Positions 2,476 to 30,806 of a DNA stretch of 64,000 bases are shown here, one piece after another. Position 1 is the first letter of the stretch. Every line of letters begins with the position of its first letter. This DNA comes from Eledone cirrhosa. Taxonomy: Eukaryota. The stretch is from assembly GCA_964016885.1 (NCBI GenBank), contig OZ024758.1, positions 22,506,001 through 22,570,000 of the forward strand, written 5' to 3'. The position numbers and the translations under genes are program-made. Under the pieces are notes generated by a model. That model did no database searches, was not told the origin of the DNA, and saw only the letters and a list, made by a program, of their open reading frames with translations.

Positions 2476-2681
2476 TTACCCAATTTGACCTGGGAAACGG
2501 AAACAATGTACATTTTGCGGCCAGTCACATTTCATCGTCTGCTGATTGAATAAAAGATATGGCGGACATCTTAGTACTTTGGCATAGACGTTTTCACATA
2601 AAATATAGCAGCGGCAATCATAAAGGTATAAGAACATTCCTCGTAAATGACCACAATATAATGGAACTGATGTGAAGTAAT
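2476..2681 (-). CDS. chitinase terminal exon: chitin-binding type-2 (CBM14) domain + stop
   Basis: DYFTSVPLYCGHLRGMFLYLYDCRCYILCENVYAKVLRCPPYLLFNQQTMKCDWPQNVHCFRFPGQIG*; the CP..L.FN.....CDWP..V.C pattern is typical of CBM14; TAA at 2476-2478. Confidence 0.93.
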
Positions 2682-3522: not shown

Positions 3523-3590
3523 CACAAGTGTTCTCAACTGGTGTAGATGTAGTTACTGGATAGTATGTTGGCTGTATAGTTGGACGATAT
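3523..3590 (-). CDS. chitinase Pro/Thr-rich linker exon (YRPTIQPTYYPVTTSTPVENTC)
   Basis: ctag acceptor and G|gtaag donor; 68 nt, phase 2 to phase 1, fits both neighbours; P/T-rich linker composition. Confidence 0.88.
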
Positions 3591-4346
3591 CTAGGAATAT
3601 AAGAGAGTCATTTATTAATATTACAGTTGGTGTTACAGAACGATATCTAGGAATATAAGAGAGTCCTTTATTAATATTACAGTTGGTGTTACAGGACGAT
3701 ATCTAGGAATATAAGAGAGTCATTTATTAATATTACAGTTGGTGTTACAGGACGATATCTAGGAATATAAGAGAGTCCTTTATTAATATTACAGTTGGTG
3801 TTACAGGACGATATCTAGGAATATAAGAGAGTCATTTATTAATATTACAGTTGCTGTTACAGGACGATATCTAGGAATATAAGAGAGTCATTTATTAATA
3901 TTACAGTTGGTGTTACAGGACGATATCTAGGAATATAAGAGAGTCATTTATTAATATTACAGTTGGTGTTACAGGACGATATCTAGGAATATAAGAGAGT
4001 CCTTTATTAATATTACAGTTGGTGTTACAGGACGATATCTAGGAATATAAGAGAGTCATTTATTAATATTACAGTTGCTGTTACAGGACGATATCTAGGA
4101 ATATAAGAGAGTCATTTATTAATATTACAGTTGCTGTTACAGGACGATATCTAGGAATATAAGAGAGTCCTTTATTAATATTACAGTTGGTGTTACAGGA
4201 CGATATCTAGGAATATAAGAGAGTCCTTTATTAATATTACAGTTGCTGTTACAGGACGATATCTAGGAATATAAGAGAGTCATTTATTAATATTACAGTT
4301 GCTGTTACAGAACGATATCTAGAAATATAAGAGAATCATTTATTAA
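3582..4346. repeat. 56-bp minisatellite, about 13.5 copies, overlapping the linker-exon acceptor
   Basis: ggacgatatctaggaatataagagagtcatttattaatattacagttggtgttaca, period 56. Confidence 0.97.
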
Positions 4347-6476
4347 ATATACTAGCAGAAAAACCTTTGTGTGGTTTTCTCTAGCATGTGTAGTGTGCAT
4401 ATTGATATTATACGCAAATATACATGCATGTAGATATGATACGTCAAATAAAATCGTAATTGACAATATGCACAGAAATTGAAGAGAATCTGTGTTACAC
4501 TGTCTTCTGTAATCAGTAAAGTAATCCATGATACATTTAAAAAAGACGATATTATATATAAACTGCATTACGGCAAAATTTTATGAAAACGAAAAAGAAG
4601 AAAATTAGCGGACTAAATATAAACCTTATATAACGATGCAAATATATGAATGTTTATATAAGCGATGTAATAAGTGTTATAATATAATGGCCGCGAACCG
4701 GAAGTGTTGACATTTGAAAATTATAAAAGAAGTGAATCGGTATATATGAAACCATTATATATAAGAATATTTATGTTTAATCAACAGCAACGAAATTTAG
4801 TAGATAAATTATGTAATATTCATTCATTACTAAAGTACCAGTAATGCACTGGGTATTTTGCTGGCATTGTGCCTAAAGTAGAAACAATTATTTATTCAAA
4901 GTAAGCCAACTTATTTTAATAACGGGAAAAATAATATATTCAGGACACAGTCCCGCACTCCTTCCTATATTATATTATGGTATAAGGGATAAGACGGAAG
5001 CTCAAAGAAATGAAAATTGGAATATAGTATATTTTGGTGGTAAAATTTTATAAACATATATGATTGTGCATGCAACCATATACGAGAATACGATAACAAA
5101 CTTCAATATTCGATAAGATTGACATACTATTTAAAGTAACTTAAATTCAATTAATGTACCAAATATGAAAATATTTATTCTGCGGGGTTAAAGAAAATAA
5201 AAGAATCTTTAAAAATTCTTCACTTTGAAATTTTACCTATAATCTTCGATTTGTATGGAACTTTACCCCCATTTTCAACTATATATAAGACTAAAATCCA
5301 AAGAGGGCTCGATAAGGATAAATATATATCAAATATATAAGAACCGTAGAGCAAATATTTATTAAAATAACAGATTAAAGTTTAAGTAAAGAATCGCTGC
5401 TTTCACCCTTAACGGGATCTTCTGAAGCTAACAAAGTCAATCTGTAAACGCAGAAGTGGATATTTCAAAAAACGTTGCAACCGGAGGAAGACAGGAAGAC
5501 GATACTTTGGTTCGTGGAAACGTTCGCTATGCAAATAAGTAATGGTATAAACAAAACATATACTTAGCTCCCACATCAAGACGTAAAATATCCACGTATA
5601 AATCGTACTATCCGTTAGGGTATAACGTGGGGCTGTAATACAGGAAAGTTTTGTGCAATTTATGTTTACAATTTATGTGACCTCTGTGCCGCTGAGGCCC
5701 TGGAAATACTCTACGCCACTGACCACATCTTAAACAAAAAATCTGAGGCAATTTCGGCTTGTAAACATAAATTGCACAAAACCTTCCTGTATTACAGCCC
5801 CACGTTATACCCTAACGGATAGGATACTCTAACATATATTATATATATTATATATATATATATATAATATATATTTTATATATATAATATATATTTTATA
5901 TATATTATATATATTTTATATATATTATATATATTATATATATATTATATATATATTATATATTATATATATATATTTATATTATACATATATTATATAT
6001 ATATTATATATATTTTATATATATTATATATATATTATATATATAGGCGGTGGATTGGCAGTATCGGTAGAGGGTCGGACGCCATGCTTTCCAGCATAGT
6101 TACGTCCCTTTTCGATCTGAGTTCAAATCCCGCCGAGGTTGACTTTGCCTTTCATCCTTACGGGGTCGATAAAATAAAGTACCAGTAATGCACTGGGTAA
6201 TTGCTGGCCTTGTGCCTAATGTAGAAACAATTATATATATATTATATATATATTATATATATATTATATATATTATATATATATATTATATATATTATAT
6301 ATATATATTATATATATATATTATATATATTATATATATATTATATATATTATATATATATATATTATATATATATATATATTATATATATATATATATT
6401 ATATATATTATATATATATATATTATATATATATATATATTATATATATATATATATTATATATATATATATATAT

Positions 6477-7303: not shown

Positions 7304-7434
7304 CCTCCTTTTAATACGTTGTTGATTGTTCTCAACAATGGGTATTTTCCATCTCCGCATACGTTGTTGAAATCATCTTCATCAAGAGCCCAAAACATTG
7401 CACCAAGAAGTCCTGTTTCTATAATGAATTGTGA
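7304..7434 (-). CDS. GH18 chitinase exon, end of catalytic domain (SQFIIETGLLGAMFWALDEDDFNNVCGDGKYPLLRTINNVLKG)
   Basis: GAM.W.LD.DDF..CG.GKYPLL motif; cag acceptor and GG|gtatgt donor (phase 2). Confidence 0.92.
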
Positions 7435-7723: not shown

Positions 7724-7846
7724 CTTGTTCCTGAAACTGATTACATCATCGTAACCGACCCACTGATTGCCAAAACGAGCTGATGGCATGCCCTCTTTTG
7801 GTATCCACTCACGAATCCAATGATTGTTTCGCAGGTTTTGGCAAAT
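7724..7846 (-). CDS. GH18 chitinase exon (ICQNLRNNHWIREWIPKEGMPSARFGNQWVGYDDVISFRNK)
   Basis: GNQWVGYDD motif; cag/gtagg sites; 123 nt. Confidence 0.95.
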
Positions 7847-8544
7847 CTGAAAAAAATGAAAAAATATATAATTGTTTCTACTTTTGGCACAAGGCCAGCA
7901 ATTACCCAGTACATTACTGGTACTTTATTTTATCGACCCCGTAAGGATGAAAGGCAAAATTAACCTTGGCGGCATTTGAAAAAAATATATAGTAAAGATT
8001 AATATAACTAATTTCTCACATTAATATAAGACTATATATTTGTTAATTAAGTTGGTCCTTAATATATAACAGGTATATTGGTGTAGGTTTCATTTGATAC
8101 AGGGGATCCTGAGGTGAAGAGAATTTTGGCAAACTCTCCGATTAATAAACCATGATAATACACTATGTGTGTTTGTATATTTATATATATCTCCATGTCT
8201 GTAACCTTTTACAATTTACACACACACACACACACACGCACACACGCACACACACGCACACACACGCACACACACACGCATACACACGCACACACGCACA
8301 CGCACACTCTCTCTCTCTCATCTACGCACTCACTCAGAAGGAGCAATCTGAAATAAAGTGTCTTGCTCAAGGACACAACGCATCACCCGGTCCGAGAATT
8401 GAACTCGCAACCTCCCGATTGCGAATCAAACTCTCTAATCACTAAGCTACGCGCCTTCTCCTTTGCAAATCCTAAATTTATCCGAACGAAAATTTCCTGC
8501 TTTTCATGATTGACCATATATGGAGTCTCTTCTTCTTGTAGTCT

Positions 8545-8860
8545 CCACAAGAGTTACAGTTACAAAGCTTGGCTAGATGTCCTTCCACCACAGCTGAATA
8601 CATTGCGGTCCTTTCTCATTAAACTCTGCAAAATCCAATGCTGTGTAGAGGTGTTCCACCAGGGGACATGTCATGAGGGGTTGCGTAGTCTGTGGTCCAA
8701 TGCCGCAGTCACACACAGCGTCCTCATCCTTTAAATATCGCCATTTTGCAAGAGTGGGCTTTTGTACGTCCAACACCAGATCTTAGTCTGTTTAGGCATT
8801 TCCACATTGCATAGTTTGTATCTGCTCCAAGGGGACAGTGCCTCGTTCCCCTTTAGGTCT
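8545..8860 (-). mobile_element. non-LTR retrotransposon 3' remnant with zinc knuckle (Ingi/Vingi/I-group-like)
   Basis: KW.Y.....CDCG..PQT...L..CP motif in ORF 8573-8776. Confidence 0.6.
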
Positions 8861-9010
8861 ATTGTTGTTACTGATGGGAGTTTGTTAATTTTTTCTTCCC
8901 AGAAAGTGAGGTTTTTTTTTTACAAAATGAAAAATAACCGAGGTGTCCTCCTCGAGTGAAAGTATAAAGAAAAAAAGATGAAATCGAAAATGCAAATGGA
9001 GTCTTATTTA

Positions 9011-9052
<42 letters not shown>

Positions 9053-9410
9053 GTTCCTTTACCGGTTTCCCAGTTCTTCTGCTTTTCAAAAGGTGAGTTG
9101 AGATGGAGGGTCTTTGGTTTTTCTCACATCTGTAAGAAAAACAGATGCGAAAAAAACCACAGACCCTCCATCACAGACCCTCCATCTCAACTCTACTTTT
9201 GAAAAGCAGAAGAACTGCGAAACCGGTAAAGGAACCAAATAAATATATATATTTTTTTTAAAATAAGACTCCAGTTGCATTTTCGATTTCATCTCTTTTT
9301 CTTTATATATATATATATATATATATATGGAAAGTTATATTTAAATTGTTGGGTTACAACTAGTAAATATTTATAACTGATATAAAAGCACTCGACAAGT
9401 ATTTGGAGTA

Positions 9411-9787
9411 TATATACGATATTAAATAAATGGAAACTATATTTATAAAACCATATTTATTTCATTATATATATTTCAGGGATATCATATTAACAATATG
9501 CTATGCCTTCCTCAGACAAAATACAATATAGACAGTTTTATAGATAAATAGATTTGACATACCGTTCAACATCGACTTGTATTTGAAAAGTTGATTTGCC
9601 AAATCAACTTTTCAAATACAAGTCGATGTTGAACGGTATGTCAAATCTATTTATCTATAAAACTGTCTATATTGTATTTTGTCTGAGGAAGGCATAGCAT
9701 ATTGTTAATATGATATCCCTGAAATATATATAATGAAATAAATATGGTTTTATAAATATAGTTTCCATTTATTTAATATCGTATATA
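9411..9787. repeat. perfect palindrome, arms of about 188 bp, 1-nt spacer at 9599
   Basis: Centre gatttg-c-caaatc; arms appear identical by eye. Confidence 0.95.
9675..9740 (+). ncRNA. hammerhead motif (mirror copy at 9458-9523, minus strand)
   Basis: tattttgt-CTGAGGA-[long imperfect stem II]-GAAA-tatata-TA-atgaaata. Related copies at 10628-10693 (-) and 20318-20378 (-, CTGATGA core). Confidence 0.7.
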
Positions 9788-10106
9788 TATATATATATAT
9801 ATATATTTGAACAAATATAACAAAATACACACAGGGATGCAAAAAATACGAAGTCTTACTTGGATCAACGCTTGAGTGGAAGTGGAGGAGGGTTCTACAT
9901 TTCGGATATATATATAGGAGTAAGTAAGACCCCGACGGCTGAGCTCAAGCCGTTTCGACGGCTAATTCTGTAAAGAATTAGTCGTCGAAACGGCTTGAGC
10001 TCAGCCGTCGGGGTCTTACATACTCCTATTACCCACTCTACTACCCTAAGTATTGAGTACTTTGGTGCGTTATGGTCCACCTGGTTCCTTACCACTTTTC
10101 CCTCGC

Positions 10107-10137
<31 letters not shown>

Positions 10138-10284
10138 ATAATAATAAATTTGAAGACTAAAATCCAAAGAGGGCTCGATAAGGATAAATATATATAAAAT
10201 ATATAAGAACCGTAGAGCAAATATTTATTATATATATATAACAAGATGGATAGGACAAAGGAGAGACACAAAATAAAAAACCTA

Positions 10285-10327
10285 GTCACTGAGGAGGTCA
10301 CAGAATATGTGATGAAAGAGCTTTGAC
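10285..10327 (+). ncRNA. hammerhead motif, related to 28294
   Basis: gtca-CTGAGGA-g-gtcaca(gaata)tgtgat-GAAA-gagc-TT-tgac. Confidence 0.65.
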
Positions 10328-10463
10328 AATATATAAACAACCTTCCGGTTATCGAACCAACCAGCCGGAAACTTATAATAAATTCAAGTGAAAACCAATA
10401 GGTTTATTGACAGCATGACCCATCCAAAGTATATCAATATATATATATATCTATATATATATA

Positions 10464-10514
<51 letters not shown>

Positions 10515-11466
10515 CAGCGATTCTTTGCTTAAACTTTAATCTGTTATTTTAATAAATATCTCTATATATATATATATATATATATACGATATTAAACAAA
10601 TGGAAACTATATTTATAAAACCATATTTATTTCATTATATATATTTCTGGGATATCATATTAAAAATATGGTATGCCTTCCTCAGACAAAATACAATATA
10701 TAAGCCGTTTTATAAATAAATTTGACATACCTTAAAATAATGCAACTTCCATTTAAAAAGTTGATTTGGTTGAATATGGTTTTATAAATATAGTCTCCAT
10801 TTGTTTAATATCGTAAACCTACTCCAAAACTGTTGAGTGCTTTTATATCAGTTATAAAATATTTAGTCGTTGTAACCCAACAATTTTAAATAAAACTTTT
10901 GCATATATATATATATATATATATACCCATTTTATTAAGGCTAAATAGTGAGTCTTGTTATTCTGGAGTTTCACCTGTTTATCACAGGGTCATCGAAGTA
11001 ACGAGACTCACTATTTAGCCTTAATAAAATGAATAATTAAACTCTACTTCGGTATTGAATACTCTCTTCTCTCAACCGTCAACTACATACGGATATATAA
11101 ATAAATATATATATATATAAGCCAATAACAGAGAGTGTGGTAAGATACCAGGTGGACCATAACACACCAGAGTACTCAATACTTAGGGTAGTAGAGTGGG
11201 TAATAGGAAAAGAGTCGGGACCCGACGGCTGAGCTCTGGCCGTTTCGACAGCTAGATCCGTTCTAGATCGAAACGGCCGGAGCTCAGCCGTCGAGGTCCT
11301 GACTCTTTTCCTATATTTTTCAATAAGCAAGTTCCCTAAGGATGTTATGTGTAGGAAAGTATATTGATCACTAAGTATTACTGGTACTTATTTTGTCGAT
11401 TCCGACAATAGACGAAGGTGGATAAATAATAAAAAAGGGATAAAAAGGGAGAATAAAGGAGCTTAC

Positions 11467-11652
11467 TTCGTAGTATGAAAGAAATCCTTTCTCTCTTGTG
11501 TACTTGCCGGGTTGGCCACCCCCGGCTACTGGAGCATCGATTCCGTATAACTCAGAGTCTACTAACGTAAAAGATCTTCCATATGCTGGCAAACCTAACG
11601 TAAGTTTATTTGGTGGTGCACCGTTTCGGATGTAGAAATAAACTGTTTTTCG
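11467..11652 (-). CDS. GH18 chitinase exon (RKTVYFYIRNGAPPNKLTLGLPAYGRSFTL...GFLSYYE)
   Basis: GAP.NKL..G.P.YGRSFTL and GFLSYYE motifs; cag/gtaag sites; 186 nt, phase 0. Confidence 0.95.
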
Positions 11653-13558
11653 CTGTCAATAGGAAAAAGATGATGGATATTAGAGTGTAGGATGTTATTA
11701 AATTGATCTTCCTCCCGTGGGAGAGGAAGAAATGGGGGGAGAGACTAAGAGTTAGAGATACAGAATCAAAGAGAATCAAAGAGAATCAAAGAGATAAGAG
11801 ATAGAATAAATGCATGTATCCCGATTAATATTGAGTTTGGAAGAATATTACAGTCATTGTAATACAGTCATAGGGCGGTGGATTGGCAGTATCGGTAGAG
11901 GGTCGGACGCCATGCTTTCCAGCGTGTTACGTCCCTTTACGAACTGAGTTCAAATCCCGCCGAGGTTGACTTTGCCTTTCATCCTTACGGGGTCGATAAA
12001 ATAAAGTACCAGTAATGCACTGGGTATTTGCTGGCCTTGTGCCAAAAGTAGAAACAATTATTGTAATATTCTAATTATTGTAATATTTCTAATTGAAGCA
12101 CAAAGCCAGCAATTTTTTGGGGTGGGTGGGCGGGTGGGGGGAGGGGAAAGTCGATTAAATCGACCCCAGTGCATTACTGGTGCTTTATTTCATCAACCTC
12201 GTAAGGATGAAAGGCAAAGTTAAGCTCGGTGAGACCTTGAACTCAGAACGTAAAGGGCCATAACTCTATGTATCTGATTCTCAAGGCCGGTACTTTTTTT
12301 TTTGTTAGGGAGGGGGGGAAAGTCGATTAAATCGACCCCAGTGCATGACTGGTACTTTATTTTATCGACCCCGTAAGAATGAAAGGCAAAGCTAACCTCG
12401 GGAGGATTTGAACTCAGAACGTAAAGAGCCGTAACTCTATGTTGCAAAGCATGGTGTCCGATGCTCTACCAATTCTGCCAATCCATATTACAATAGTAAT
12501 GAAGGAATAAAGCAATGATGGTGTTCTCTCACTTCATATGACTTAGGTAAAAATAATTGTTTCTACTTTTGGCACAAGGCCAGCAATTACCCCAGTACAT
12601 TACTGGTACTTTATTTTATCGACCCCGTAAGGATGAAAGGCAAAGTTAACCTTGGCGGGATTTGAACTCAGACCATAAAGGGACGTAACCCTATGCTGCA
12701 AAGTATGGAGTCCGACCCTCTACCGATACTGCCAATCCACCGTTTAGGTAAAAATAATGGTTTCTGATTTCGGCACAAGGCCAGCAATTTAATTTGCGTG
12801 TGTTGGATGGGGAAGGGGGGGGGGTCGGCTCTACGCACGACGATGCTTTGGGATCGCTGGCTTAGCTTAGGATGACCCCCCCCCGGCCTTGTTGAGTAAG
12901 AGTAAGAAGACGTGTGTGTGGGGGGTGGGGGGGGGGGGGGTGCGGTGGGGGGTATGTATGTGAGAGGGGGGGGAGGTAAAGTCGATTAAAACCTGGCATT
13001 TTTTTTTAAACGATGAGATACTTAATTTAATGTATATTTCTTTAAATGCAGTAGTAATAATTGTTTCTACTTTAGGCACAAGGCCAGCAATTACTCAGTA
13101 CATTACTGGTACTTTATTTTATCGACCCCGTAAGGATGAAAGGCAAAGTTAACCTCGGCGGGATTTGAACTCAGTAGTAATAATAATAATAATAATAGTA
13201 ATGATAATAATAATTGTTTCTACTTTAGGCACAAGGCCAGCAATTACCCAGTACATTACTGGTACTTTATTTTATCGACTCCGTAAGGATGAAAGGCAAA
13301 GTTAACCTCGGCGGGATTTGAACTCAGTAGTAATAATAATAATAATAATAGTAATAATAATGCTTTCTTTATTAACCACAAGGGTTTACATAAAGTAGAC
13401 ATTAAGGATAATAACAATAATAATAACAAAAATAATAATGATGATGATGATGATGATAAGAACAATGATAACAAAAATGAAAAGGAAATGCCTAGAAATA
13501 GCCGCAAAGATCTTAGTATGAATTCACGGGGTCCCAAAGACTACTTGTAAGTCATTTA

Positions 13559-13737
13559 CCGTATTTCCCGGCACCGAAGATGCTTCGTCTTCAAGGACGA
13601 ACCCTAATTTTTTTGACAACCAAAAATTTGAAAAAAAAAAAAAAAAAAGGAAACAACCTTTGGCCTCCAGGACGCATGGTAGATTTTTGAGACTTATTTT
13701 AGGAAAAAAGTAGCGTCTTCTACGCCGGGAAACACGG
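13559..13737. mobile_element. MITE with CCGTATTTCCCGGC termini (Tc1/mariner-pogo-like)
   Basis: ta-ccgtatttcccggc ... gccgggaaacacgg-tta. Confidence 0.55.
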
Positions 13738-13865
13738 TTATTACCATTTCTTTCTACGCATGTTATTCTGAGAAGAATATGGATATTACAAGATATGGGT
13801 ATTACAAGATTTCTTTTATATGAATTGAAATCTTGTGATAATGCAAAGAAGATAATCATATTCAC

Positions 13866-13953
13866 CATTTCTGAATTAGGACTGCAAAGACCAGCTTTCT
13901 CTTCCCATGTTCCATGATAATCATATGTCATTAAATTTATGAAGTGTAAATAT
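13866..13953 (-). CDS. GH18 chitinase exon (YLHFINLMTYDYHGTWEEKAGLCSPNSEM)
   Basis: NLMTYDYHG.W motif; tag/gtgaa sites; 88 nt. Confidence 0.92.
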
Positions 13954-15676
13954 CTATAAAGAAAAAAAAAGTATGTTAAATGATTGTTTCTACTTTTGGC
14001 ACAAGGCCAGCAATTACCCCAGTACATTACTGGTACTTTATTTTATCGACCCCCGTAAGAATGAAAGGCAAAGTTAACCTCGGCGGGATTTGAACTCAGA
14101 CTATAAAGGGCCGTAACTCTTTGCTGCAAAGCATGGCGTTCAACCCTCTACCGATACTGCCAATCCACCACCCTAAAAAGTGTGTTAAATGATATAATCT
14201 AGATATAAACAACAACAACAATACCATTTCAGATAAGGGCCGTGAATTGGCAGAATCGGTAGAGCGTCGGACAGCTTGCTTCGTGGCATAGAGTTACGGC
14301 TTTTTAAATTCTGAGTTCAAATCCCGCCGAGGTTAGCTTTGCCTTTCATCCTTACGGGGTCGATAAAATAAAGTACCAGTCACGCACTGGGGTCAATTTA
14401 ATCAACTTTCCCCTCCCCCCTAGTATTGTATTTAAAACAGTATTGTATATAAATATAAAAATAGTACACCACTCTGACTTAGGTGTAGAGTCTGTCACCC
14501 TCTTCCCTTCCCCCTGTTTTTCTTCCTTTGCCTAATAGTCCTTGCTCTTCCCTTCTTTTCCTCTCGTTTATGGCATTTATATTCCTTTCCAATGCTGCTT
14601 TCTTTTTCTATATGGTTGACTAATTTATAGTTATATCAACAATAAATTTATTCCTAGTATAATAATTGTTTCTACTTTTTTGGCACAAGGCCACCAATTA
14701 TCCCAGTGTATTACTGGTACTTTATTTCATCGACCCCGTAAGGATGAAAGACAAAGTTAACCTCGGCGGGATTTCAGAACGTAAAGGGACGTAACTCTGT
14801 GATGCAAAGCACGGCGTCCGATCCTCTACCGATACTGCCAATCCACCACCTTAGTATAATAATTGTTTCTTTTTTGGCGCAAGGCCAGCAATTACTCAAG
14901 CGCATTACTGGTACTTTATTTCATCGACCCCATAAGAATGAAAGGCAAAGTTAACCTCGACGGGATTTGAACTCAGAACGTAAAGTGATGCAACTCTATG
15001 CTGCAAAGCATGGCGTCCGATTCTCTACCGATACTGCCAATCCACGGCCTTAGTATGATAATTGAAATTCATTTTGTCCACTTTATAATCCAAATATAAA
15101 CAGCAACATCAACAACAATAATATTTCAGGTTTTCAAATGGTATGGAGAGAATTGGTTCTTTGATTTATTTTTAAGACATCAAATTAGTTTTAGAAACGA
15201 AAGCACCAATATTATCGTGTATGTTATATAAAATATCCATGTCCTGCACGGCTTAGATCACAACTCTGCTCGATCAGGGCCAACCTGAGACTAGAAACAG
15301 CAACTCACAACAACGGATTAAGGGTCTCAGTTTCACCTTCGTTGTATCAGCGAACATTCCACAAACGTGCCATAAATGACTTAGAGAAAATCAGCGATTA
15401 GAAAAAAACAAACAAACCCAAAATGATTAAAAATGTAAAGTTAATATGGTTCCATCATGATGAAGCATTAAAAATAACACATTAAAACAAACACACGCTT
15501 TCGCATTTTTAGCGATTATTCAGCAGATATGCCCGGAATGATTTTGATAAAATCAATTATTAATATGGTATATAGATGTTAACTTATATGTCTATCTACA
15601 TGTAAACCTCCCCCCACAAACCAAACAACTTTCAAAATGTACGAAACAATTTATACTTTCAAAAGAAATTACTCAC

Positions 15677-15780
15677 TGCGCAAGAACTGGAATATTATAA
15701 TATTGTAGTGATTTTTGTGTGTTTGCTGAAAGAGCTGCAGTTAACAACAAACCTTCTCTATCATATGCTGGTCGCATTGT
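15677..15780 (-). CDS. GH18 chitinase exon (TMRPAYDREGLLLTAALSANTQKSLQYYNIPVLA)
   Basis: LLLTAA motif; cag/gtgag sites; 104 nt, phase compatible with both neighbours. Confidence 0.92.
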
Positions 15781-16584
15781 CTGTAAAGACAGTTAAGAAG
15801 AAAAAAATCATTAATTTATGTTTTGTTTTCTATTATAACATTATTTTTCTTCCTAAACATAGCCATTAATGGGATTTAGATAAATAAATAAATAGATTAT
15901 CTATTTATCTGATTTTCAAAGATATTGCGTTACAGATATATATTTTACAAAAATATGTTATTGATAGAAAATGGTAGATAATTTAATAGTTATAACGCGT
16001 TAGTATCAAGTCTATATGTTTATACGGTTAAGTATTAAAACTTAAACCAAGCTATCGTCTGCCAACTTAGAAAAATTAATAAAGAAAAGATCAAATACAA
16101 AGCAAAATGAAAAACAATTTTCTGAAGGGGAAACCTTAAAATATCTTTTGTAAATATAAATTCAAACGAAAGACACAGAACTTCAGGGTCTTCTGTCGTT
16201 GAGATCGTCTGTTATACTGATTTGATTATATTTTGACACCTCATCATTTTGTTATATTATTTACTAATATTTCTATAAACCACATTTAACTGTAATAATG
16301 TAGTGGTGTATGTCATTGATTGAGACAGAAATAAGGCAGAGAAACTTAAAATCAGCGATGTATTTGTTTATTTGTATGAAATCTTGTATTGAAACAGATA
16401 TTGTTATATTTCGGGAGGGTCATGTTGTTTTAATATTGCCAAAAAATAGTAAAACACACTCCCTGTTTGGTTTTCGCTTCAGTTTCGGTATATATTTTTC
16501 ATATTTCCATTAATAATTTAGCTGGTAATCAATGTTTATCATTGATTGACCAACAATTAAAAATATAAATATAAATATATTTTC

Positions 16585-16625
16585 TCAAAGTTTTTCATCA
16601 CACATTTCTGTGGCATCTTCAGTGA
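16585..16625 (-). ncRNA. degenerate hammerhead motif
   Basis: tca-CTGAAGA-tgccacagaaatgtgtgat-GAAA-aac-TT-tga; imperfect stem II. Confidence 0.45.
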
Positions 16626-16810
16626 TTATCCTGAAAGTGTCACAGAAATCTAAGCCAGCAATAGTCTACTTTCAAATGAATTTGATTGTAAATAAAAGAG
16701 GTATGAAGCATAGTGGATATAAATTGTATCCCAGCTCACACCACCGTACGCCATTTCATTTATATTTCCCTCTTACTTGTTTTTAATTGTGGGAAAGGTG
16801 ACGTACTTAC

Positions 16811-17063
16811 CTGTACTAACCGGGAAAATCCATCTCTGTCGGTTGGTCTTCCTCCACGTTTGGTTGGATATTCCCAATCAATATCAAGACCATCAAAGCC
16901 ATAGTCTCGGAGAAACTTTATAGAGTTCGCTAAAAAGGCGTTGATATTTTGCTGAGAAGATACCACGCTAGAAAAAGCTGGAGATTTAGCGTTCCAGCCT
17001 CCAATTGCCAACGAAATCTTTAGGCTGGGATTTCGTTTTTTGAGAGCAACAACACGGGCGATG
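16811..17063 (-). CDS. GH18 chitinase catalytic exon (...AIGGWN...FDGLDIDWEYP...)
   Basis: Intact DxxDxDxE catalytic motif FDGLDIDWEYP and IGGWN; cag/gtaag sites; 253 nt, phase 2 to phase 0. Confidence 0.97.
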
Positions 17064-17393
17064 CTGAAAAAAATATATTGATATAAACAATAGATCAAAC
17101 CAGGTCAATGATTCCATTAAAACTTAGACAAAGAAGTTGAATTTCGTAATGCCATTAACCTCATAGAGGTAATTGTTTTTTAGAATAGAATATAAATATA
17201 TATATATATGACAAAGAAAGTGTGGTAAGAAACCAGGTGGACCATAACGCACCAGAGTACTCAATAGTTAGAGTAGTAGAGTGGGTAATAGGAAAAAGGC
17301 TAGGACCCCCGACAGCTGAGCTCCAGCCGTTTCGACAGCAAGATAAGTTCGAATCTAGCTGTATAAACAGCCGGGGGGTCCTGACATCTTCGC

Positions 17394-17481
<88 letters not shown>

Positions 17482-17955
17482 TACTGTGGCAGTAGCCATA
17501 ACAAACCCTCAAAGAAATACAGAAAGAAAGACAAGTATAGTAGAGGCTGTTAGCAATACGTTACAGTATTACAATGTGCTTTATTTGCTGTGAAGATAAC
17601 GTATCTTATTTTCAAGTGTTAACAAAATAATAGCGCTAATATGAAGAATGTCTCCACCCAACACTTCAACGAAAATACGCCATTTTGTATATTTAATCTG
17701 CCAAGGGAGGTAATCTTTAACGTTATGTATATAGTTTTAGTCACTCACTCGCCCTAACCTTCTGACATCTTGCACACTACATGTATATATTTGCATGTAC
17801 TGGAACATGTAAGTATATATGAGTGTACGGGTGTTACCGTGTGTATATAAATATTTATACATGGCAATGATACTGATATCCATATTTATAAAGTTGTGTC
17901 AACCTCCAAATATCTTTATATCTGTCAAAATATTTATCTTTTAAGACATCTTATT

Positions 17956-19452
17956 TGTTGTTGGTGGTGGTGGTGGTGGTGGTGATGGTTGTGGTGGTGG
18001 TGGTTGTGGTGGTGAAGGTGGTGGTTGTGGTGGTGATGATGGGGTGTGGTGTTGGTGGTGGTGGTGGTGGTGGTGGTGGTGATGGTTGTGGTGGTGGTGG
18101 TTGTGGTGGTGAAGGTGGTGGTTGTGGTGGTGGTGATGGGGTGTGGTGTTGGTGGTGGTGGTGGTGGTGGTGGTGATGGTTGTGGTGGTGATGGGTTTGG
18201 CGGTGATGGTGAAGGTGTTGGTGGTGATGATGGGGTGTGGTGGTGTTGGTGGTGGTGGTGGTGGTGGTGATGGTGGTTATGGTGGTGGTGGTGGTGGTGC
18301 TGATGGTGATGGGTTTGGCGGTGATGGTGAAGGTGTTGGTGGTGATGATGGGGTGTGGTGGTGTTGGTGGTGATGGGGTGTGGTGTTGGTGGTGATGGGG
18401 TGTGGTGTTGGTGGTGGTGGGGTGTGGTGTTGGTGAAGGTGGCGGTGGTGTTGGTGGCGGTTGTGGTGGTGATGGGTGTGGTGCTGGTGGTGATGGGGTG
18501 TGGTGTTGGTGGTGATGGGTGTGGTGCTGATGGTGAAGGTGTTGGTGGTGATGGTGTTGGTGGTGGTGGTGGTGGTGATGGGGTGTGGTGTTGGTGGTGA
18601 TGGGGTGTTGGTGGTGATGGGGTGTGGTGCTGGTGGTGATGGTGACGGTGTTGGTGGTGATGGGGTGTGGTGTTGGTGGGGTGTGGTGTTTGTGGGTGTG
18701 GTGCTGGTGGTGATGGTGACGGTGTTGGTGGTGATGGGGTGTGGTGTTGGGGGCGATGGTGAAGGTGGTGGTGATGGTTGTGGTGGTGAAGGTGTTGGTG
18801 GTGATGGGGTGTGGTGTTGGTGATGGTGAAGGTGTTGGTGGTGATGGGGTGTGGTGTTGGTGGTGATGGGGTGTGGTGTTGGTGTTGATGGGGTGTGGTG
18901 TTGGTGGTGATGGGGTGTGGTGTTTGTGGGTGTGGTGCTGGTGGTGGTGGTGATGGTGAAGGTGGTGGTGGTGGTGCTGATGGTGGCTATGGTGGTGATG
19001 GGTGTGGTGCTGGTGGTGATGGTGAAGGTGTTGGTGGTGATGGGGTGTGGTGTTGGTGGTGATGGGGTGTGGTGTTGGTGTTGATGGGGTGTGGTGTTGG
19101 TGGTGATGGGGTGTGGTGTTTGTGGGTGTGGTGCTGGTGGTGGTGGTGATGGTGAAGGTGGTGGTGGTGGTGCTGATGGTGGTTATGGTGGTGATGGGTG
19201 TGGTGCTGGTGGTGATGGTGAAGGTGTTGGTGGTGATGGGGTGTGGTGTTGGGGGCGATGGTGAAGGTGGTGGTGATGGTGAAGGTGTTGCTGGTGATGG
19301 GGTGTGGTGTTGGTGATGGTGAAGGTGGTGGTGGTGGTGATGGTTGTGGTGGTGATGGGTGTGGTGCTGATGGTGAAGGTGTTGGTGATGGTGAAGGTGG
19401 CGGCGGTGGTGGTGGTGGTGGTGGTGTTGGTGGCGGTGGTAGTGATGGTGAT
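17956..19452. repeat. 1.5-kb degenerate (GGT)n-rich repeat in chitinase intron
   Basis: Higher-order motifs such as ggtggtgatggggtgtggtgtt. Confidence 0.97.
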
Positions 19453-19516
19453 AACGTATACATAATTACTCACGCACGGACATATCCATACATGTAATGA
19501 ATATTGTACATATATA

Positions 19517-19596
19517 CAGAGTGTCCCCCCAAAAATGTATACACATATGTATTAGAATGCTGCTGAAGTGTGTATACATCTTTTGGGGACCCCCTG
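19517..19596. mobile_element. 80-bp Tc1/mariner-type MITE
   Basis: TA-cagagtgtccccccaaaaatgtatacac ... gtgtatacatcttttggggaccccctg-TA; related copy at 21045-21144. Confidence 0.7.
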
Positions 19597-19670
19597 TACA
19601 TATATTCTTATGTACACCAGAATGTATATTTGTTTGTTTTTCTGTTACTGCTAGCACCCCCCCTCTCTCT

Positions 19671-19758
<88 letters not shown>

Positions 19759-20200
19759 TATATATTCATACACATATATATATACATAGAAACACACATA
19801 CTTATATATACATACATATACACACATATATATATACATAGAAACACACACATACTTATATATACATATGTATACACACATATATATATACATACACACA
19901 CATATACATACATACACACATACATATATATACATACACACACACACATATATATATATACATACACACACATATATACACATACACATATATATATATA
20001 TATATACACAGATACACATATATATATATATACACACACACACATATATATATATATATACACACACACACATATATATATATACACACATATATATATA
20101 TACACACATATATATATATACACACATATATACATACACACACATACACATATATATATATATACACACATATATATATACACACATATATACATACACA

Positions 20201-20281
<81 letters not shown>

Positions 20282-20537
20282 ATTAATAAATGGAAACTAT
20301 ATTTATAAAACCATATTTATTCTATTATATATATTTCAGGGGTACCAAAACTTTGGTTCGCACTCATCAGATAAAATACAAAGTTTGTTTTATAAATAGT
20401 GACATATCCAGGAATGAGACCTTAACGGTTCAATTTCAGTCTATAGTTTCCATTTATTAATATCATTGATATTATACTCCAGAAAACTTGTCGAGTGCTT
20501 CGAATCTGTTATAAATATATTTGTTCAATTACCTTTG

Positions 20538-20617
<80 letters not shown>

Positions 20618-20739
20618 ATTTTTAATGCGATGAAATACCCATGATCGTTTGGTAAATCACTGATGAGGGACTCATTTTATAACATGTTATCCATGTGCAA
20701 CCAGCAGTATTCTTCTCACCCATATTTTCATATATATAC

Positions 20740-20800
<61 letters not shown>

Positions 20801-21339
20801 GTATTAATTCTTGTATTACTTTCAAGAATCTACAGAAAATATAGATTTAAATTAGGATAACGTAATATATATGTCCCAGAGGTTTTTATGATGTACAAGA
20901 TAATGGCGACTATAATACCGTTAAAGGGCGTGTTCTAACTGTTTCCAGAGTTTAAACTCCAGCATTGGTATGTCATCTCTTTTCATCTGAGTAATTTTAA
21001 TACTAGTAATATTTCCAAAACTTTGTTTTTTGACGAAATATATACAGGATGTCAAAAAAAAAAAAAAAAATAATAATTATATATGCATACATACTTTGAT
21101 TAGAAAGCTGTTGAAGTATGTATACATTTTTTTTAGACACCCTGTATATACACCAGGTGGACCATAACGCACCAGAGTACTCGATACTTAGGATAGTAGA
21201 GTAGAGTGGGTAATAGGAAAAGAGTCAGGACCCCTATATATATATATATATATACATACACACATACACACCTGGTGTATATACAGGGTGTCTAAAAAAA
21301 TGTATACATACTTCAACAGCATTCTAATCAAAGTATGTA

Positions 21340-21380
<41 letters not shown>

Positions 21381-21431
21381 TGACATCCTGTATATATTTC
21401 GTCAAAAAACAAATAGGAAAAGAGTCAGGAC

Positions 21432-21477
<46 letters not shown>

Positions 21478-22055
21478 GTCCTGACTCTTTTCCTATTACC
21501 CACTCTACTATCCTAAGTATTGAGTACTCTGGTGCGTTATGGTCCACCTGGTTTCTTACCACGTTTTCCTACCACGCTTTCTATGTATTGTGTTCTTGAG
21601 CAAAACACTTCATTTCACGTTGCTCCAGTGTACTCAGTTGAAAATGAGTACCAGCAATAGCTGGGGAGTTAACCCTGTGTCAAAATAGTTTTTGTTTTAT
21701 TTGATGTCTTATCAAAATTAAAGTGTTGCGGGTTGTTCGTAAAATATAATCATGGGCTCCAAGAGCTTTAGAAAATATTTTAGGGGTTATGCGACAAAAT
21801 AAGTGTAGGGACTACTATTTCATTTACGGTTGTTGTACTCGGTTGTTCTCACTTAAAAAATATATTGAAGTGGCTTTTCTTTAGACGGAGATAAATATCT
21901 CTTGAAAATAAAAACATTTTTTAGTTTCTGTGAATTTTCCAGAAGAGTTTTTATACTTAAAGAAAGAAAAAATATATGTATATATAAATGGTAAAAAAAA
22001 GAAAAAATAGCCAGAAAAAAATAACCAGAAAAAAAAAAAATGCCTCAGAACTTAC

Positions 22056-22227
22056 TTGGCGTCGTCGTTCCATTCGACTTTATGGATTTCGTTTCCAACA
22101 ACTTTACCAAATGCATAGTTGATATGTGTACATAAAGTGGGATCTATGTCACGTGGGAAGAACTTTCCCCCCGGGGCGCGATATTGCGACCAGTTGGTGA
22201 AATAACATACCACGTAGTAACTCCACA
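22056..22227 (-). CDS. GH18 chitinase exon ([57 protein letters not shown])
   Basis: Typical animal chitinase N-terminal motifs [11 protein letters not shown] and [11 protein letters not shown]; tag/gtaag splice sites; 172 nt, phase 1 to phase 2. Confidence 0.95.
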
Positions 22228-22308
22228 CTAAAACAGATAGATTGTATAAAGATTAGATATATTATATTTTTGTGGTTTTCGCTCTAAAACAAACGTTTCT
22301 TTAGTGTC

Positions 22309-22421
<113 letters not shown>

Positions 22422-22502
22422 GGTAAACAGAAATAACAACACAATCGGTACAGTATATGGAAGGTATATATTAGGTTAACGCTTGATGTAGCAGGAAGAG
22501 GA

Positions 22503-22538
22503 TCTTAACGTTTCGGACGCTAGTACTTCATCAGAAGA
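22503..22538 (-). ncRNA. hammerhead motif
   Basis: tctt-CTGATGA-agtac(tagc)gtcc-GAAA-cg-TT-aaga. A truncated copy near 53361-53390 has the repaired stem ggac/gtcc. Confidence 0.6.
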
Positions 22539-23014
22539 AAGAATGAGAAAAAAGATAGATTGAGGGGACGGGCGGGTTGGAATTAGAAAAAATGTCTTTA
22601 GATAAAAATAACAGGTCCATTCAAGTTGACATCTCTTATATACATATATATTTAATGTGTAGGAAAAACAAACCCTAGGCATGAAGTATAGAAAAAAGTG
22701 ACGAATTTGATCAAAAGTTCATTTTTTAACATATGTTTCAATACATATTTTAGAGAGGAAAGTTCATATCTCTGGCCGTGTAAAATATGTATGTAAAAAC
22801 TAATAATTTTGTTTCCCCTTTTTAGTATTTGTATAAATATGCAACATAACTACATTATGCATATCCGCAGTTGAAAAAGTATATAATACTGAAACCGGTA
22901 CCATTATTAAATGCGGAAATATCCACTTTATAAATAGATAAATGTTTTGATATTATACTGAAAGAATCTCTTCAGCATTTTCTACTGAAAAATTTTTTTT
23001 CCTCTCTACTATTT

Positions 23015-24317
<1,303 letters not shown>

Positions 24318-25376
24318 TTGTCATACTTTGGGAGGGTGATGGTGTCAATAAAAAAATTTAAGATGTTCCAGGTAAAAAAATAAATCTCTGCTACTGGTAT
24401 GAACATTCACTTGTTTCAGAAAATAACTTTAAAAAAAATAAACCCCCCAAAATCTGTTTTTTTTTTTTTTGTGTTTTGTACTGCACTAAAATTTGGGTTT
24501 AGCTAGTTAAAAAAAATATACTATTACGTACTTTCTGTTAGCGAGTAGATTGTTAGCGAGTAGATTGTTAGCAGCTGTTAGCTTATCCTCTATGTAGGAT
24601 TGGCAAAATGATAGTTTCTGATTTAGGCACAAGGCCAACAAAGTTGATCCAGTACATTACTGGTACTTTATTTTATCGACCCCGTAAGGATGAAAGGCAA
24701 AGCTAACCTCGGCGGGATTTGAACTCAAAACGTAAAGGGCCGTAACTCTATGCCACAGAACATGTTGTTCGACGCTCTACCGACACTGCCAACCACCTCA
24801 CTTGGATTGGCGAAATAATAATACGAAAACAAACAATTTCTAGTTTGTTCCTTCTCAACTGCAATACTGCACCTAAGACTGAATTGAGCCGTCATCCTGA
24901 ATAATTGTTTCTACTTTTAGCACAAGGCCAGCAATTACCTCAGTGTATTACGGGTACTTTATTTTATCGACCCTGTAAGGGTGAAAGGCAAAATTAACCA
25001 CGGCGGGATTTGAACTCAGAACGTAAAGGGCCGTAATTCTACGCTGCAAAGCATGGTGTCTGACGCTCTACCGATACTACCAATCCAACGCCTTTAAGAG
25101 AAGAAAAATAATACCATACTGCCGCCATGTTTTTTTCAATGGTATTAGTAATGTAGATAGAGAAAGTGAACATAAAGGGCCATAACTCTATGCTGCAAGG
25201 AATGGTGTCTGACGCTCTACCGATACTGCCAATCCAACGCCTTTAAGAGAAGATACCATACGACCACCATGTTTTTTTCAATGGTATTAGTAATGTAGAT
25301 AGAGAAAGTGAACGTAAAGGGCCATAACTCTATGCTGCAAAGCATGGTGTCTGATGCTCTACTGATACTGTCACTC

Positions 25377-25817
25377 TGAATAATGAGCTGTACTGTAAAT
25401 AGATCAACTTAGTTGAACCTTAAACATTCATTCAATCATTCTTCTGTTGTTTGATCCGTTCTTTTGTGTCTGCAAAACCTAACTAAGACTGAATTGAGCC
25501 GTCATCCCGAATAATGAGCTGTAACCAAATCAACTGAGTTGAACCTTAAACATTCATTCAAGCATTCTTCTGTTGTTTGATCCGTTCTTTTGTGTCTGAA
25601 AAACCTAACTAAGACTGAATTGAGCCGTCATCCCGAATAATGAGATGTAAACAAATCAACTGAGTTGAACCTTAAACATTCATTCAAGCATTCTTCTGTT
25701 GTTTGATCCGTTCTTTTGTGTCTGTAAAACCTAACTAAGACTGAATTGAGCCGTCATCCCGAATAATGAGCTGTAAACAAATCAACTGAGTTGTACCTTA
25801 AACATTCATTCAAGCAT
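25377..25817. repeat. 126-bp tandem repeat, about 3.5 copies
   Basis: aactaagactgaattgagcc at 25481, 25607 and 25733. Confidence 0.92.
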
Positions 25818-25971
25818 TTGTATGTTTGTTATTTGATTCGTGTGTTTCTGACTGTAAAGTGATACTGTTTATATTTCATTCAGTTTTACTTGTTTTAATT
25901 AAATTTGATGCATCTGGAAACGTGATAAGGGAATAGAGTAATTTGTGTAGGGTGTATGCGTGTGTATATAC

Positions 25972-26047
<76 letters not shown>

Positions 26048-26193
26048 TTAGTTTCTGAATTTGTTGGCAACATGACCGTCCCCAAAATATAACAATATAT
26101 ATATATACATATACTTCCTCCAAGAGTGAACGTAATATAACTGTAGTTTTGCTTCCTGTGTTTTGTTTCATTTATTAACTAATATATATACAC

Positions 26194-26277
<84 letters not shown>

Positions 26278-26406
26278 ATATATATATATATAACAAAACA
26301 AACACATTCAAAAATACAAAGTCGTATTAGGTTCACGCTTAGAGGAAGTGTAATGTATGCTTACTTCATAATTGTTTTATTTTTATACCTGTTAGTTGTT
26401 TTATAA

Positions 26407-26473
<67 letters not shown>

Positions 26474-26479
26474 TGTATA

Positions 26480-26523
<44 letters not shown>

Positions 26524-27198
26524 TGTATATAATTATATATATATTTATATATATATAATTATGTATATAATTATATATATATATATATATATATATAATT
26601 ATGTATATTATATATATATTTATATATATATATATAATTATGTATATTATATATATATTTATATATATATATATATAATTATGTATATAATTATATATAT
26701 ATTTATATATATATATAATTATGTATATAATTATATATATATTTATATATATATATAATTATGTATATAATTATATATATATTTATATATATATATAATT
26801 ATGTATATAATTATATATATATTTATATATATAATTATGTATATAATTATATATATATTTATATATATAATTATGTATATATTTATATATATATTTATAT
26901 ATATAATTATGTATATATTTATATAATTATGAATACAATTATATATATATTTATATATATATATATATATATAATTATATATATATATATATAATTATAA
27001 TTATATATATATATATAATTATATATATATAATTATATATATATATGTATATCATTATATATATATATGTATATAATTATATATATATTTATATATATAT
27101 ATATATCATTACGGGGTCGATAAAATAAAGTACCAGTAATGCACTGGGTAATTTGCTGGTCTTGTGCCTAAAGTAGAAACAATTATATATATGTATAC

Positions 27199-27264
<66 letters not shown>

Positions 27265-27360
27265 TATATCATTATATATATAATTATAATTATATATATA
27301 TGTAATTATATATATATATATAATTATATATATAATTATATATAATTATATATATATATA

Positions 27361-27408
<48 letters not shown>

Positions 27409-27497
27409 TTATATATATAATTATAATTATATATATATGTAATTATATATATATATATAATTATATATATAATTATATATAATTATATATATATATA

Positions 27498-27561
<64 letters not shown>

Positions 27562-27565
<4 letters not shown>

Positions 27566-28560
27566 ATACTTTGGGAGGGTCATGTTGCCAATAAGAAACA
27601 CACGCACCAGTTGCTTTCACTTCGATTTATTATATATTTATAAATTTATAAATTTACAATTTAGCATAAGATGTACTGAAGGACAATGTAGAAACAAAAA
27701 TATAGTGTAAAAAATATAGTGTACATAGGTGAGACAGCTCGTAGTATAGGGGAACGAATAAATGAACACTGGCGAGACCTTCAAGATAATAAAGAATCAT
27801 CTGTGCTCTACCAACATGCTAAGATAGAACACAGGGGTAGATTAGAGAACATAGAAATAAAAATAGAATCCACACACAGAAAAGATGCAATGTTTAGGCA
27901 AATTACAGAGGCAGTAAGCATAAAAGAATTACAACCAAAATTAAATAGAAAATATGAGTGGAACAGCAACATCACAACTTACAATTAAGGACAAAATGAA
28001 AACACACACAGGACAAAATGAAAACACACACACACATAGAACAAACAACTTACAATTAAGGACAAAATGAAAACACACACAGGACAAAATGAAAACACAC
28101 ACACACATAGAACAAACAACCAACCAACAATAAATAAATAAATAAATAAATAAACAAATAGATAAATGAACACAAACACACACAGACACCCGGAGGTGGC
28201 GCATGCGCAAACTGAGCACACAACACACACACAGAAACAAAATAGCGTAGGATAGAAGAAAGGAAAGGCACAGAAACAAAGAAAGGAATCCCCAGTCACT
28301 GATGAGGTCACAGAGTGTGTGACGAAAGGACTATGACTATATATAAACAACTATCTGGTTGTGGAACCAACCAACCAACCAGAAATTTATAAGTTTGTAG
28401 ATTTGTAAATTTATAAATTTATAAATATATAATAAATCGAAGTGAAAGCAACTGGTGCGTGTGTTTCTTATTGGCAACATGACCCTCCCAAAGTATAACA
28501 ATATCGGTTTCAACACACGATTTCAGATAAAGAATCTTGCTAAACAAATTCAGAAACGAA
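27562..28560 (+). mobile_element. 5'-truncated Penelope-like retroelement (GIY-YIG remnant + hammerhead-bearing terminal repeat + inverted partial repeat)
   Basis: ORF 27719-27988 has YIGET.RS..ER..EH...EA..IK...PKLN, a GIY-YIG C-terminal pattern. 27562-27650 is an inverted copy of about 28410-28500. Flanked by (TA)n. Confidence 0.85.
28294..28338 (+). ncRNA. minimal type I hammerhead ribozyme motif in Penelope-like 3' repeat
   Basis: agtca-CTGATGA-g-gtcaca(gagtg)tgtgac-GAAA-ggac-TA-tgact; about 300 nt downstream of a GIY-YIG remnant. Confidence 0.8.
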
Positions 28561-29222: not shown

Positions 29223-29275
<53 letters not shown>

Positions 29276-29313
29276 TTTCTGGCAATTATAACAATATGAC
29301 CCTCCCCAAACAT

Positions 29314-29353
<40 letters not shown>

Positions 29354-30734: not shown

Positions 30735-30806
<72 letters not shown>

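What the first reader, a model, noticed from the sequence alone, without database searches (positions are those of the whole stretch)
3582..4346. Splice acceptor of the chitinase linker exon is amplified about 13 times as a 56-bp minisatellite
Seen: on the coding strand each unit contains ...ctctcttatattcctag|ATATCGTCC, identical to the real acceptor plus the first 9 exon bases. Only the last copy (3590) is followed by the in-frame linker exon and its donor. Using the acceptor one unit upstream would give GYR.VTPTVILINDSLIFLDIVQLYSQHTIQ*, and more distal ones stop at GTC CTG TAA. Either way the CBM14 domain is lost. Inference: the VNTR supplies decoy 3' splice sites that could tune the ratio of CBM-containing to CBM-less or NMD transcripts, with copy number varying among individuals.
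Basis: partly seen in the sequence, partly recalled or inferred. Interest (0 to 1): 0.75.

Follow-up and report, generated by a model that had tools for sequence, protein, structure and literature searches.

The report
Splice-acceptor mirage repeat in octopod chitinase
A 56-base piece spanning the end of an intron and the start of the next exon of an octopus-type chitin-digesting enzyme gene is repeated about 14 times head to tail; this kind of repeat is already described in lancelets and humans, and the cell likely splices only to the last copy, so it is probably ordinary.

Summary
In detail: 14 acceptor-like AG sites lie 56 nt apart (4318 to 3590, minus strand) in a 3.7-kb intron of an intact octopod GH18-linker-CBM14 chitinase. 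Only 3590 keeps the reading frame; all 23 upstream AGs in the array lose CBM14, and only 3646 escapes the 50-nt NMD rule. The unit is 31 nt of intron end plus probably 25 nt (not 9) of exon start, with boundary copies diverged. This is a 'mirage' minisatellite, a class described in amphioxus; human CBS 844ins68 is a one-copy analogue. In those cases upstream copies are skipped and mRNA is normal. The scan's earlier notes report the same kind of array in this genome and in annelids, a clam and sea urchins. Minisatellites are dense here (38 in 390 kb), and 0 of 362 sampled exon-match ends had a spanning array, so no enrichment is shown. Acceptor use and copy-number variation were not observed. 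Best reading: tolerated repeat with silent decoys (0.72). Leaky splicing 0.2; regulated CBM dial 0.04. New member of a known kind; interest 0.15.

The parts
3582..4346 (-). 56-bp minisatellite ('mirage'), 13.7 copies; unit = 31 nt intron end (branch-point-like motifs, pyrimidine tract, AG) plus 25 nt exon-start-like sequence
   Evidence: single locus in G000 by one DNA search
3523..3590 (-). Linker exon, 68 nt, Pro/Thr-rich; working acceptor at 3590 (the last repeat unit), donor GTAAGT after 3523
   Evidence: tblastn to the O. vulgaris linker
3622..3677 (-). Nearest decoy unit (acceptor at 3646): T>G at -20 removes a TGAC branch-point-like motif and makes an extra AG; C>T at +8. Only upstream acceptor whose stop lies under 50 nt (30 nt) from the last junction
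   Evidence: branch-point reading is from recalled consensus
4294..4349 (-). Outermost unit (acceptor at 4318), diverged at 5 of 31 intron positions; inferred to be the original single-copy acceptor
   Evidence: origin is inference
7304..7434 (-). Last catalytic-domain exon; its donor (GTATGT) feeds the 3,713-nt intron that holds the array
2476..2681 (-). Last coding exon, CBM14 chitin-binding domain, stop at 2478-2476
   Evidence: Pfam PF01607 E 3.5e-10
7724..32684 (-). Seven upstream coding exons (32684-32612, 22227-22056, 17063-16811, 15780-15677, 13953-13866, 11652-11467, 7846-7724): signal-peptide-like start and GH18 domain with the DxxDxDxE motif; the ATG exon was not located

Best explanation
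The array is a tandem repeat of a chitinase intron-exon junction (a 'mirage' minisatellite) that likely arose by a 56-bp duplication across the acceptor and later expansion, and whose 13 upstream acceptor copies are likely skipped so that the full enzyme with its chitin-binding domain would still be made. Shown: unit anatomy, intact gene, frame outcomes, diverged boundary copies, high local density of minisatellites. Inferred step 1: one duplication copied 31 nt of intron and about 25 nt of exon; slippage or unequal exchange expanded and homogenised the copies; the terminal exon differs from the units by a 9-nt in-frame gap. Inferred step 2: with long flanking introns (3,713 and 841 nt) the exon is defined across its length, so the acceptor nearest the strong GTAAGT donor and next to the full exon (3590) wins. 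Inferred step 3: rare use of other copies gives early stops, 22 of 23 of them in the NMD class by the 50-nt rule, so the array is tolerated rather than used.
For: Gene intact: 467-codon model without internal stop, catalytic motif present, 388 of 466 residues identical to O. vulgaris P0005 and CBM14 conserved. Same anatomy as amphioxus BflGb6 (3' end of intron plus 5' part of exon), where RT-PCR suggested regular splicing and boundary units were excluded from homogenisation (PMC3087553 passages; PMC3902484 passages); boundary exclusion is seen here too. CBS 844ins68, a duplication of 52 intron plus 16 exon bases: the downstream site is strongly favoured and mRNA is normal. Duplicated beta-globin 3' sites next to 14, 55 or 205 nt of exon spliced only to the distal site in vitro, though inefficiently (PMC5389562 passage). 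Under exon definition the sites closest across the exon are favoured (PMC9225289 abstract and section 9). Base rate: 38 complex arrays in 390,000 sampled bases gives about 0.3% per junction, about 5% for one of this gene's 19 junctions; 0 of 362 exon-match ends had a spanning array, 1.05 expected. No in-frame product exists from any upstream AG.
Against: Acceptor choice is inferred from other species, not observed. Seven of 13 decoys are identical to the working site over -31..+9, the nearest at 3702 giving a normal-sized 180-nt exon. In human data competing 3' sites overall prefer the upstream one; in the long/long intron class this preference is 'significantly reduced', and the text does not say it is reversed. 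In CBS the upstream copy carries a variant, and a cited title points to G-run silencers, so skipping there is not by position alone (reference title only). No hairpin hides the decoys: 3500-3760 folds worse than all 200 shuffles. Human tandem repeats at exon-intron boundaries can give alternative transcripts (PMC2812944 passages). The 50-nt NMD rule is recalled from vertebrates and untested in molluscs.
Confidence: 0.72

Rival explanations
1. Leaky, unregulated competition: a measurable minority of transcripts use upstream copies (most likely 3702 or 3646). Most would be degraded or truncated, so long arrays would slightly lower enzyme output, as a by-product and not a programme.
For: 7 of 13 decoys identical over -31..+9; exons of 124, 180 and 236 nt are of ordinary size; residual upstream preference for competing human 3' sites; decoys unstructured; boundary repeats with alternative transcripts in human paralogues.
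Against: Described mirages and CBS 844ins68 give normal mRNA; duplicated-site constructs spliced to the distal site; the coding sequence is intact and conserved.
Confidence: 0.2
2. One reading: the array is a selected, regulated dial that sets the ratio of CBM14-bearing to CBM-less chitinase, with copy number varying among individuals.
For: Use of 3646 would give a complete catalytic domain plus a 31-residue tail with its stop 30 nt before the last junction. A CBM-less predicted form is listed for O. bimaculoides (P0030), but it leaves the gene one exon earlier and cuts the catalytic end.
Against: Copy number cannot add CBM-less products: 22 of 23 upstream AGs give stops over 50 nt before the last junction. 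The one useful decoy carries two variants. No conserved alternative form at this junction was found among the 3 orthologue clusters and their 6 members. Arrays of this size are common here (14 with period 30 or more and 8 or more copies in 390 kb).
Confidence: 0.04
3. Assembly artefact: the array is absent or much shorter in the animal.
For: Copy number could not be measured: no single-copy flank contig was laid.
Against: Runs X1 and X2 each hold one 86-nt contig (56 + 30, wrapping on itself in X2) at word depth 101.7 and 46.4, the form a collapsed 56-bp tandem array takes (both are one sample, possibly the assembled one, so not independent). Copies carry three interleaved variant sites and a diverged outer copy, unlike a mechanical duplication.
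Confidence: 0.04

Closest known systems
Amphioxus 'mirage' minisatellites: globin BflGb6 (acceptor type), BflGb9, Adh3, troponin C, PGBD5 (PMC3087553 and PMC3902484, passages seen; Canestro et al. 2002 not held)
   Same: Tandem copies of the 3' end of an intron plus the 5' part of the next exon; AG kept; inner copies homogenised, boundary copies diverged; unit size within the reported 10-160 bp.
   Different: Octopod host; 14 copies against 3-6 in BflGb6; length polymorphism and normal splicing were reported there and are untested here; here the terminal exon differs from the units by a 9-nt in-frame gap.
Human CBS c.844_845ins68 (PMC2630376, PMC7490669, passages seen)
   Same: Duplication of intron end plus exon start (52 + 16 nt) giving tandem 3' splice sites; the copies differ in the exon part; the downstream site is used.
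   Different: One extra copy, not an array; splicing shown by experiment; it masks a pathogenic variant.
Human F7 intron 7 37-bp VNTR (PMC1557585, abstract seen)
   Same: Minisatellite spanning a splice junction, with identical pseudo-sites that are functional but normally silent.
   Different: Donor side, not acceptor side; proven VNTR; a 5'-to-3' scanning rule was proposed that does not transfer directly to acceptors.
Octopod GH18-CBM14 chitinase (O. vulgaris/O. sinensis CAI9715520.1, XP_029644661.1; O. bimaculoides XP_014779876.1; Argonauta GAB1598163.1)
   Same: 75-83% identity over the whole model, same domain order, catalytic motif intact.
   Different: Linker 22 residues against 24-26; the introns of these orthologues could not be read, so whether they carry the array is unknown.

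Membership tests
Mirage minisatellite | Tandem repeats that span an exon-intron boundary | tested here: met
   Unit = 31 nt intron end plus exon start; 14 acceptor sites; definition from PMC3087553 passage
Mirage minisatellite | Many copies keep the splice signal | tested here: met
   13 of 13 upstream copies keep the AG; 7 of 13 identical over -31..+9
Mirage minisatellite | Concerted evolution of inner units, boundary units excluded | tested here: met
   Inner copies differ from the majority at 0-2 of 56 positions; the 4318 copy at 7; the terminal copy's exon part at 11 of 25 ungapped
Mirage minisatellite | Length instability between haplotypes or cells | tested here: inconclusive
   Collapsed 86-nt contigs only; two RAD runs of other samples gave 0 reads
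Mirage minisatellite | Regular splicing of the host mRNA is kept | not testable with these tools
   No run covering the exons was available to lay (see Tried and rejected); an intact conserved frame is indirect
   One assembly, no second allele seen; call it a minisatellite until genotyped
Regulated alternative 3' splice-site array | More than one acceptor gives an in-frame product | tested here: not met
   Only 3590 keeps CBM14 among all 32 AGs examined between 4400 and 3524
GH18 chitinase with CBM14 | GH18 domain with DxxDxDxE catalytic motif | tested here: met
   PF00704 over cut-off on 3 of 5 window exons scanned; motif present
GH18 chitinase with CBM14 | C-terminal CBM14 after a Pro/Thr linker | tested here: met
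   PF01607 40.3 bits, cut-off 22.1; linker exon

The most novel reading that the evidence does not exclude
The gene's working branch point and acceptor are themselves the last unit of a turning-over array: the ancestral acceptor is stranded 728 nt upstream, the working exon has lost three codons against the units, and repeat turnover can move a variant unit (T>G at -20) into the working or next-to-last position. Then unit order, not copy number, would set how much transcript goes to 3646 and yields a stable chitinase without its chitin-binding domain: a natural allelic series for 3' splice-site choice in a mollusc.
Probability: 0.08. Interest if true: 0.5.

Novelty: new member of a known kind. 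Interest (0 to 1): 0.15.

Why it matters
If the best reading holds it matters little: one more junction-spanning minisatellite, in a genome where such arrays come about once per 10 kb. It does extend 'mirages' to cephalopods, which my two library searches did not find in print, and it is a neat natural test of exon definition, with seven identical acceptors at 56-nt steps. It is also a trap for gene annotation and read mapping. It would matter more if RNA showed allele-dependent use of 3646, since that would link a repeat to loss of a binding domain from a digestive enzyme (cephalopod chitinase transcripts are reported in salivary and digestive glands, PMC12607849 passages; not shown for this gene).

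Tried and rejected
RNA test: no RNA holder listed for 2400-8000. Orthologous introns: only proteins were reachable; 3 clusters found, and a search for shorter proteins found none among 4 candidates, so the polarity of the 9-nt gap rests on three orthologues. Selection against the nearest decoy: rejected as evidence, since 5 of 13 copies carry the -20 variant and the nearest having it is a 38% event. Hairpin masking of decoys: rejected, z +2.75. In-frame read-through at every third copy: rejected, stops in the second unit. Skipping the linker exon: frameshift, CBM14 lost. Units as micro-exons: two weak GTAA sites per unit and gaps of about 34 nt, judged implausible by eye. Genome-wide enrichment of junction-spanning arrays: not seen, 0 of 362 match ends (upper 95% bound 0.8%); two arrays began 3 and 9 nt past a match end without including exon sequence; the test is weak and some match ends are not true junctions. 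Dispersed family: one DNA search of G000 found the unit at this locus only (the tool warns that counts are lower bounds). One search had a frame slip in my exon list; one search is the corrected run. Papers not held: PMC1783408, PMC117041. PMC3488318 gave reference-list hits only.

Full report
Observation. Tandem Repeats Finder gives 3582-4346, period 56, 13.7 copies, 97% matches. On the minus strand 14 acceptor-like sites put the first exon base at 3590+56n. A 23-base pattern hits 14 times, 13 exactly, with none in 100 shuffles. One DNA search of the own genome (3.0 Gb, 1,796 contigs) found the unit at this locus only. Runs X1 and X2 (one sample, possibly the assembled one) each hold an 86-nt contig, the collapsed form of a 56-bp array, at depth 101.7 and 46.4; no flank contig was laid, so copy number was not measured.

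Host gene. Ten exons between 32684 and 2476, all with AG/GT ends, give a 467-codon frame without internal stop and with the DxxDxDxE motif; it is 83%, 81% and 75% identical to O. vulgaris P0005, O. bimaculoides P0028 and Argonauta P0020. Pfam finds GH18 on 3 and CBM14 on 1 of 5 window exons scanned. The ATG exon was not located. The animal is an octopod by these identities. The array lies at the 3' end of a 3,713-nt intron; the next intron is 841 nt.

Anatomy of the unit. Each unit is 31 nt of intron end plus 25 nt that begin like the exon. The unit continues in frame as YRPVT, against YPPVT in Argonauta and VPPVT in O. bimaculoides (4 and 3 of 5 identical), whereas the working exon reads YRPTI (2 and 1 of 5); and exon bases +9..+16 match the unit 7 of 8 after a 9-nt offset. 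Both features together occurred in 492 of 1,000,000 shuffles; singly in 4.6% and 1.1%. The criteria were chosen after seeing the sequence, and by eye the working linker also aligns to O. vulgaris without that gap about as well, so this is probable, not proven. It suggests that the duplication took about 25 exon bases and that the working copy later lost three codons. Inner copies vary at three sites (-20, +8, +17); the outermost copy (4318) differs at 5 of 31 intron positions, while the working acceptor matches the inner majority. So the working acceptor is part of the homogenised array, and 4318 is likely the original one (inference).

What each acceptor would give. Of 32 AGs between 4400 and 3524, only 3590 keeps CBM14. 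The 23 upstream AGs inside the array (13 main, 5 made by the +17 variant, 5 by the -20 variant) all stop early; 22 stop more than 50 nt before the last junction. Only 3646 stops 30 nt before it, after a 31-residue tail. More copies therefore cannot add more CBM-less products, only more decay-class ones. The 50-nt rule is recalled from vertebrates; its validity in molluscs is unknown. The nearest decoy has lost a TGAC branch-point-like motif and gained an AG, but 5 of 13 copies share that variant, so this is no sign of selection. The region is less structured than all 200 shuffles, so no hairpin hides the decoys.

Is it more than chance? The repeat itself is far beyond chance, but its place is not. 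In 39 stretches of 10 kb (40 asked for, one absent) there were 38 arrays with period 20 or more, 3 or more copies, 85% or more matches and a non-simple unit; 14 had period 30 or more and 8 or more copies. That puts an array end in the first 30 nt of a given exon about 0.3% of the time, about 5% for one of this gene's 19 junctions. A direct count used 181 loci: 11 GH18 paralogue hits, the 90 best kinase, Ras and WD40 hits, and 80 more (69 of 108 further kinase rows, 11 of 86 further Ras rows, picked by short or partial match before seeing sequence; the 103 further WD40 rows were not fetched). No array spanned any of 362 match ends; 1.05 expected. Some ends are not real junctions and the power is low, so this shows no enrichment but does not exclude a modest one.

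How it most likely works. Shown: everything above. Inferred: the 68-nt exon between two long introns is defined across the exon, pairing the strong GTAAGT donor with the nearest acceptor that is followed by the full exon. Human data support cross-exon proximity in general, but for 3' sites they show only a reduced upstream preference in the long/long class (PMC9225289; abstract, passages and section 9 seen), which leaves room for a leak. Duplicated beta-globin acceptors spliced only to the distal site in vitro, inefficiently (PMC5389562, passages). I put silent decoys at 0.72, an unregulated leak at 0.2, a regulated dial at 0.04 and an assembly artefact at 0.04.

Comparison with what is known. 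I reached CBS 844ins68 from recall and checked it: a duplication of 52 intron and 16 exon bases, downstream site strongly favoured, normal mRNA (PMC7490669 and PMC2630376, passages; the latter calls the sites 'donor'). The scan's earlier notes supplied the term 'mirage', which I checked in PMC3087553 and PMC3902484 (passages; supplements not read): amphioxus BflGb6 has tandem copies of intron 3' end plus exon 5' part, AG kept, boundary units excluded from homogenisation, splicing apparently regular. Three of five listed features are met here, none failed, two could not be decided. F7 intron 7 is the donor-side analogue (PMC1557585, abstract). Human boundary repeats can also give alternative transcripts (PMC2812944, passages). 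The original mirage paper and Zhuo et al. 2007 were not held. Searches for 'mirage, minisatellite, splice' (3 papers) and 'octopus, minisatellite, intron, splice' (1 paper), seen as listings, showed no cephalopod case; the library lacks most subscription papers. The scan's notes list the same kind of array in this genome (NEDD4, a fasciclin, ECM29) and in annelids, a clam and sea urchins; these are unchecked AI notes and are not counted as support.

Verdict. Real, correctly seen, over-interpreted. New member of a known kind; interest 0.15. The one fresh angle is that the working acceptor is itself a repeat unit, so unit order could matter (probability 0.08, interest 0.5 if true).

Noticed in passing
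L008-L018, L058-L227: Of 55 complex arrays in the flanks of exon matches, 14 have their nearest edge 50-150 nt from the match end, against 1-8 in other 100-nt bins; arrays may pile up just outside splice signals. Not corrected for neighbouring exons or repeated loci.
   Followed up: partly
window 2778-3500, also 13055-13361, 34523-35032, 54809-55676: Tandem copies of one abundant short interspersed repeat (SINE-like; label recalled, not tested); one copy starts about 20 nt after the linker exon's donor.
   Followed up: no
window 132-506, 25393-25818, 57646-58560: Three further complex minisatellites (periods 40, 126, 80); none lies at a modelled exon boundary.
   Followed up: partly
window 17962-19450: 1.5-kb TGG-rich repeat inside a chitinase intron, giving long His/Pro/Thr frames that are probably not coding.
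   Followed up: no
window 37525-37724: Assembly gap of 200 N upstream of the first modelled coding exon; the ATG exon was not located and could lie near or beyond it.
   Followed up: no
P0030 (O. bimaculoides, UniRef A0A0L8GLK6): A 358-aa predicted form of the orthologue leaves the frame one exon before the linker intron and lacks the end of the catalytic domain and CBM14.
   Followed up: partly
L101:1699-1899: A 22-bp minisatellite starts a few bases after a GTAAG donor of a Ras-family exon without including the junction.
   Followed up: no
L027:1-10000: A whole 10-kb sample stretch is one 26-bp satellite, about 387 copies.
   Followed up: no
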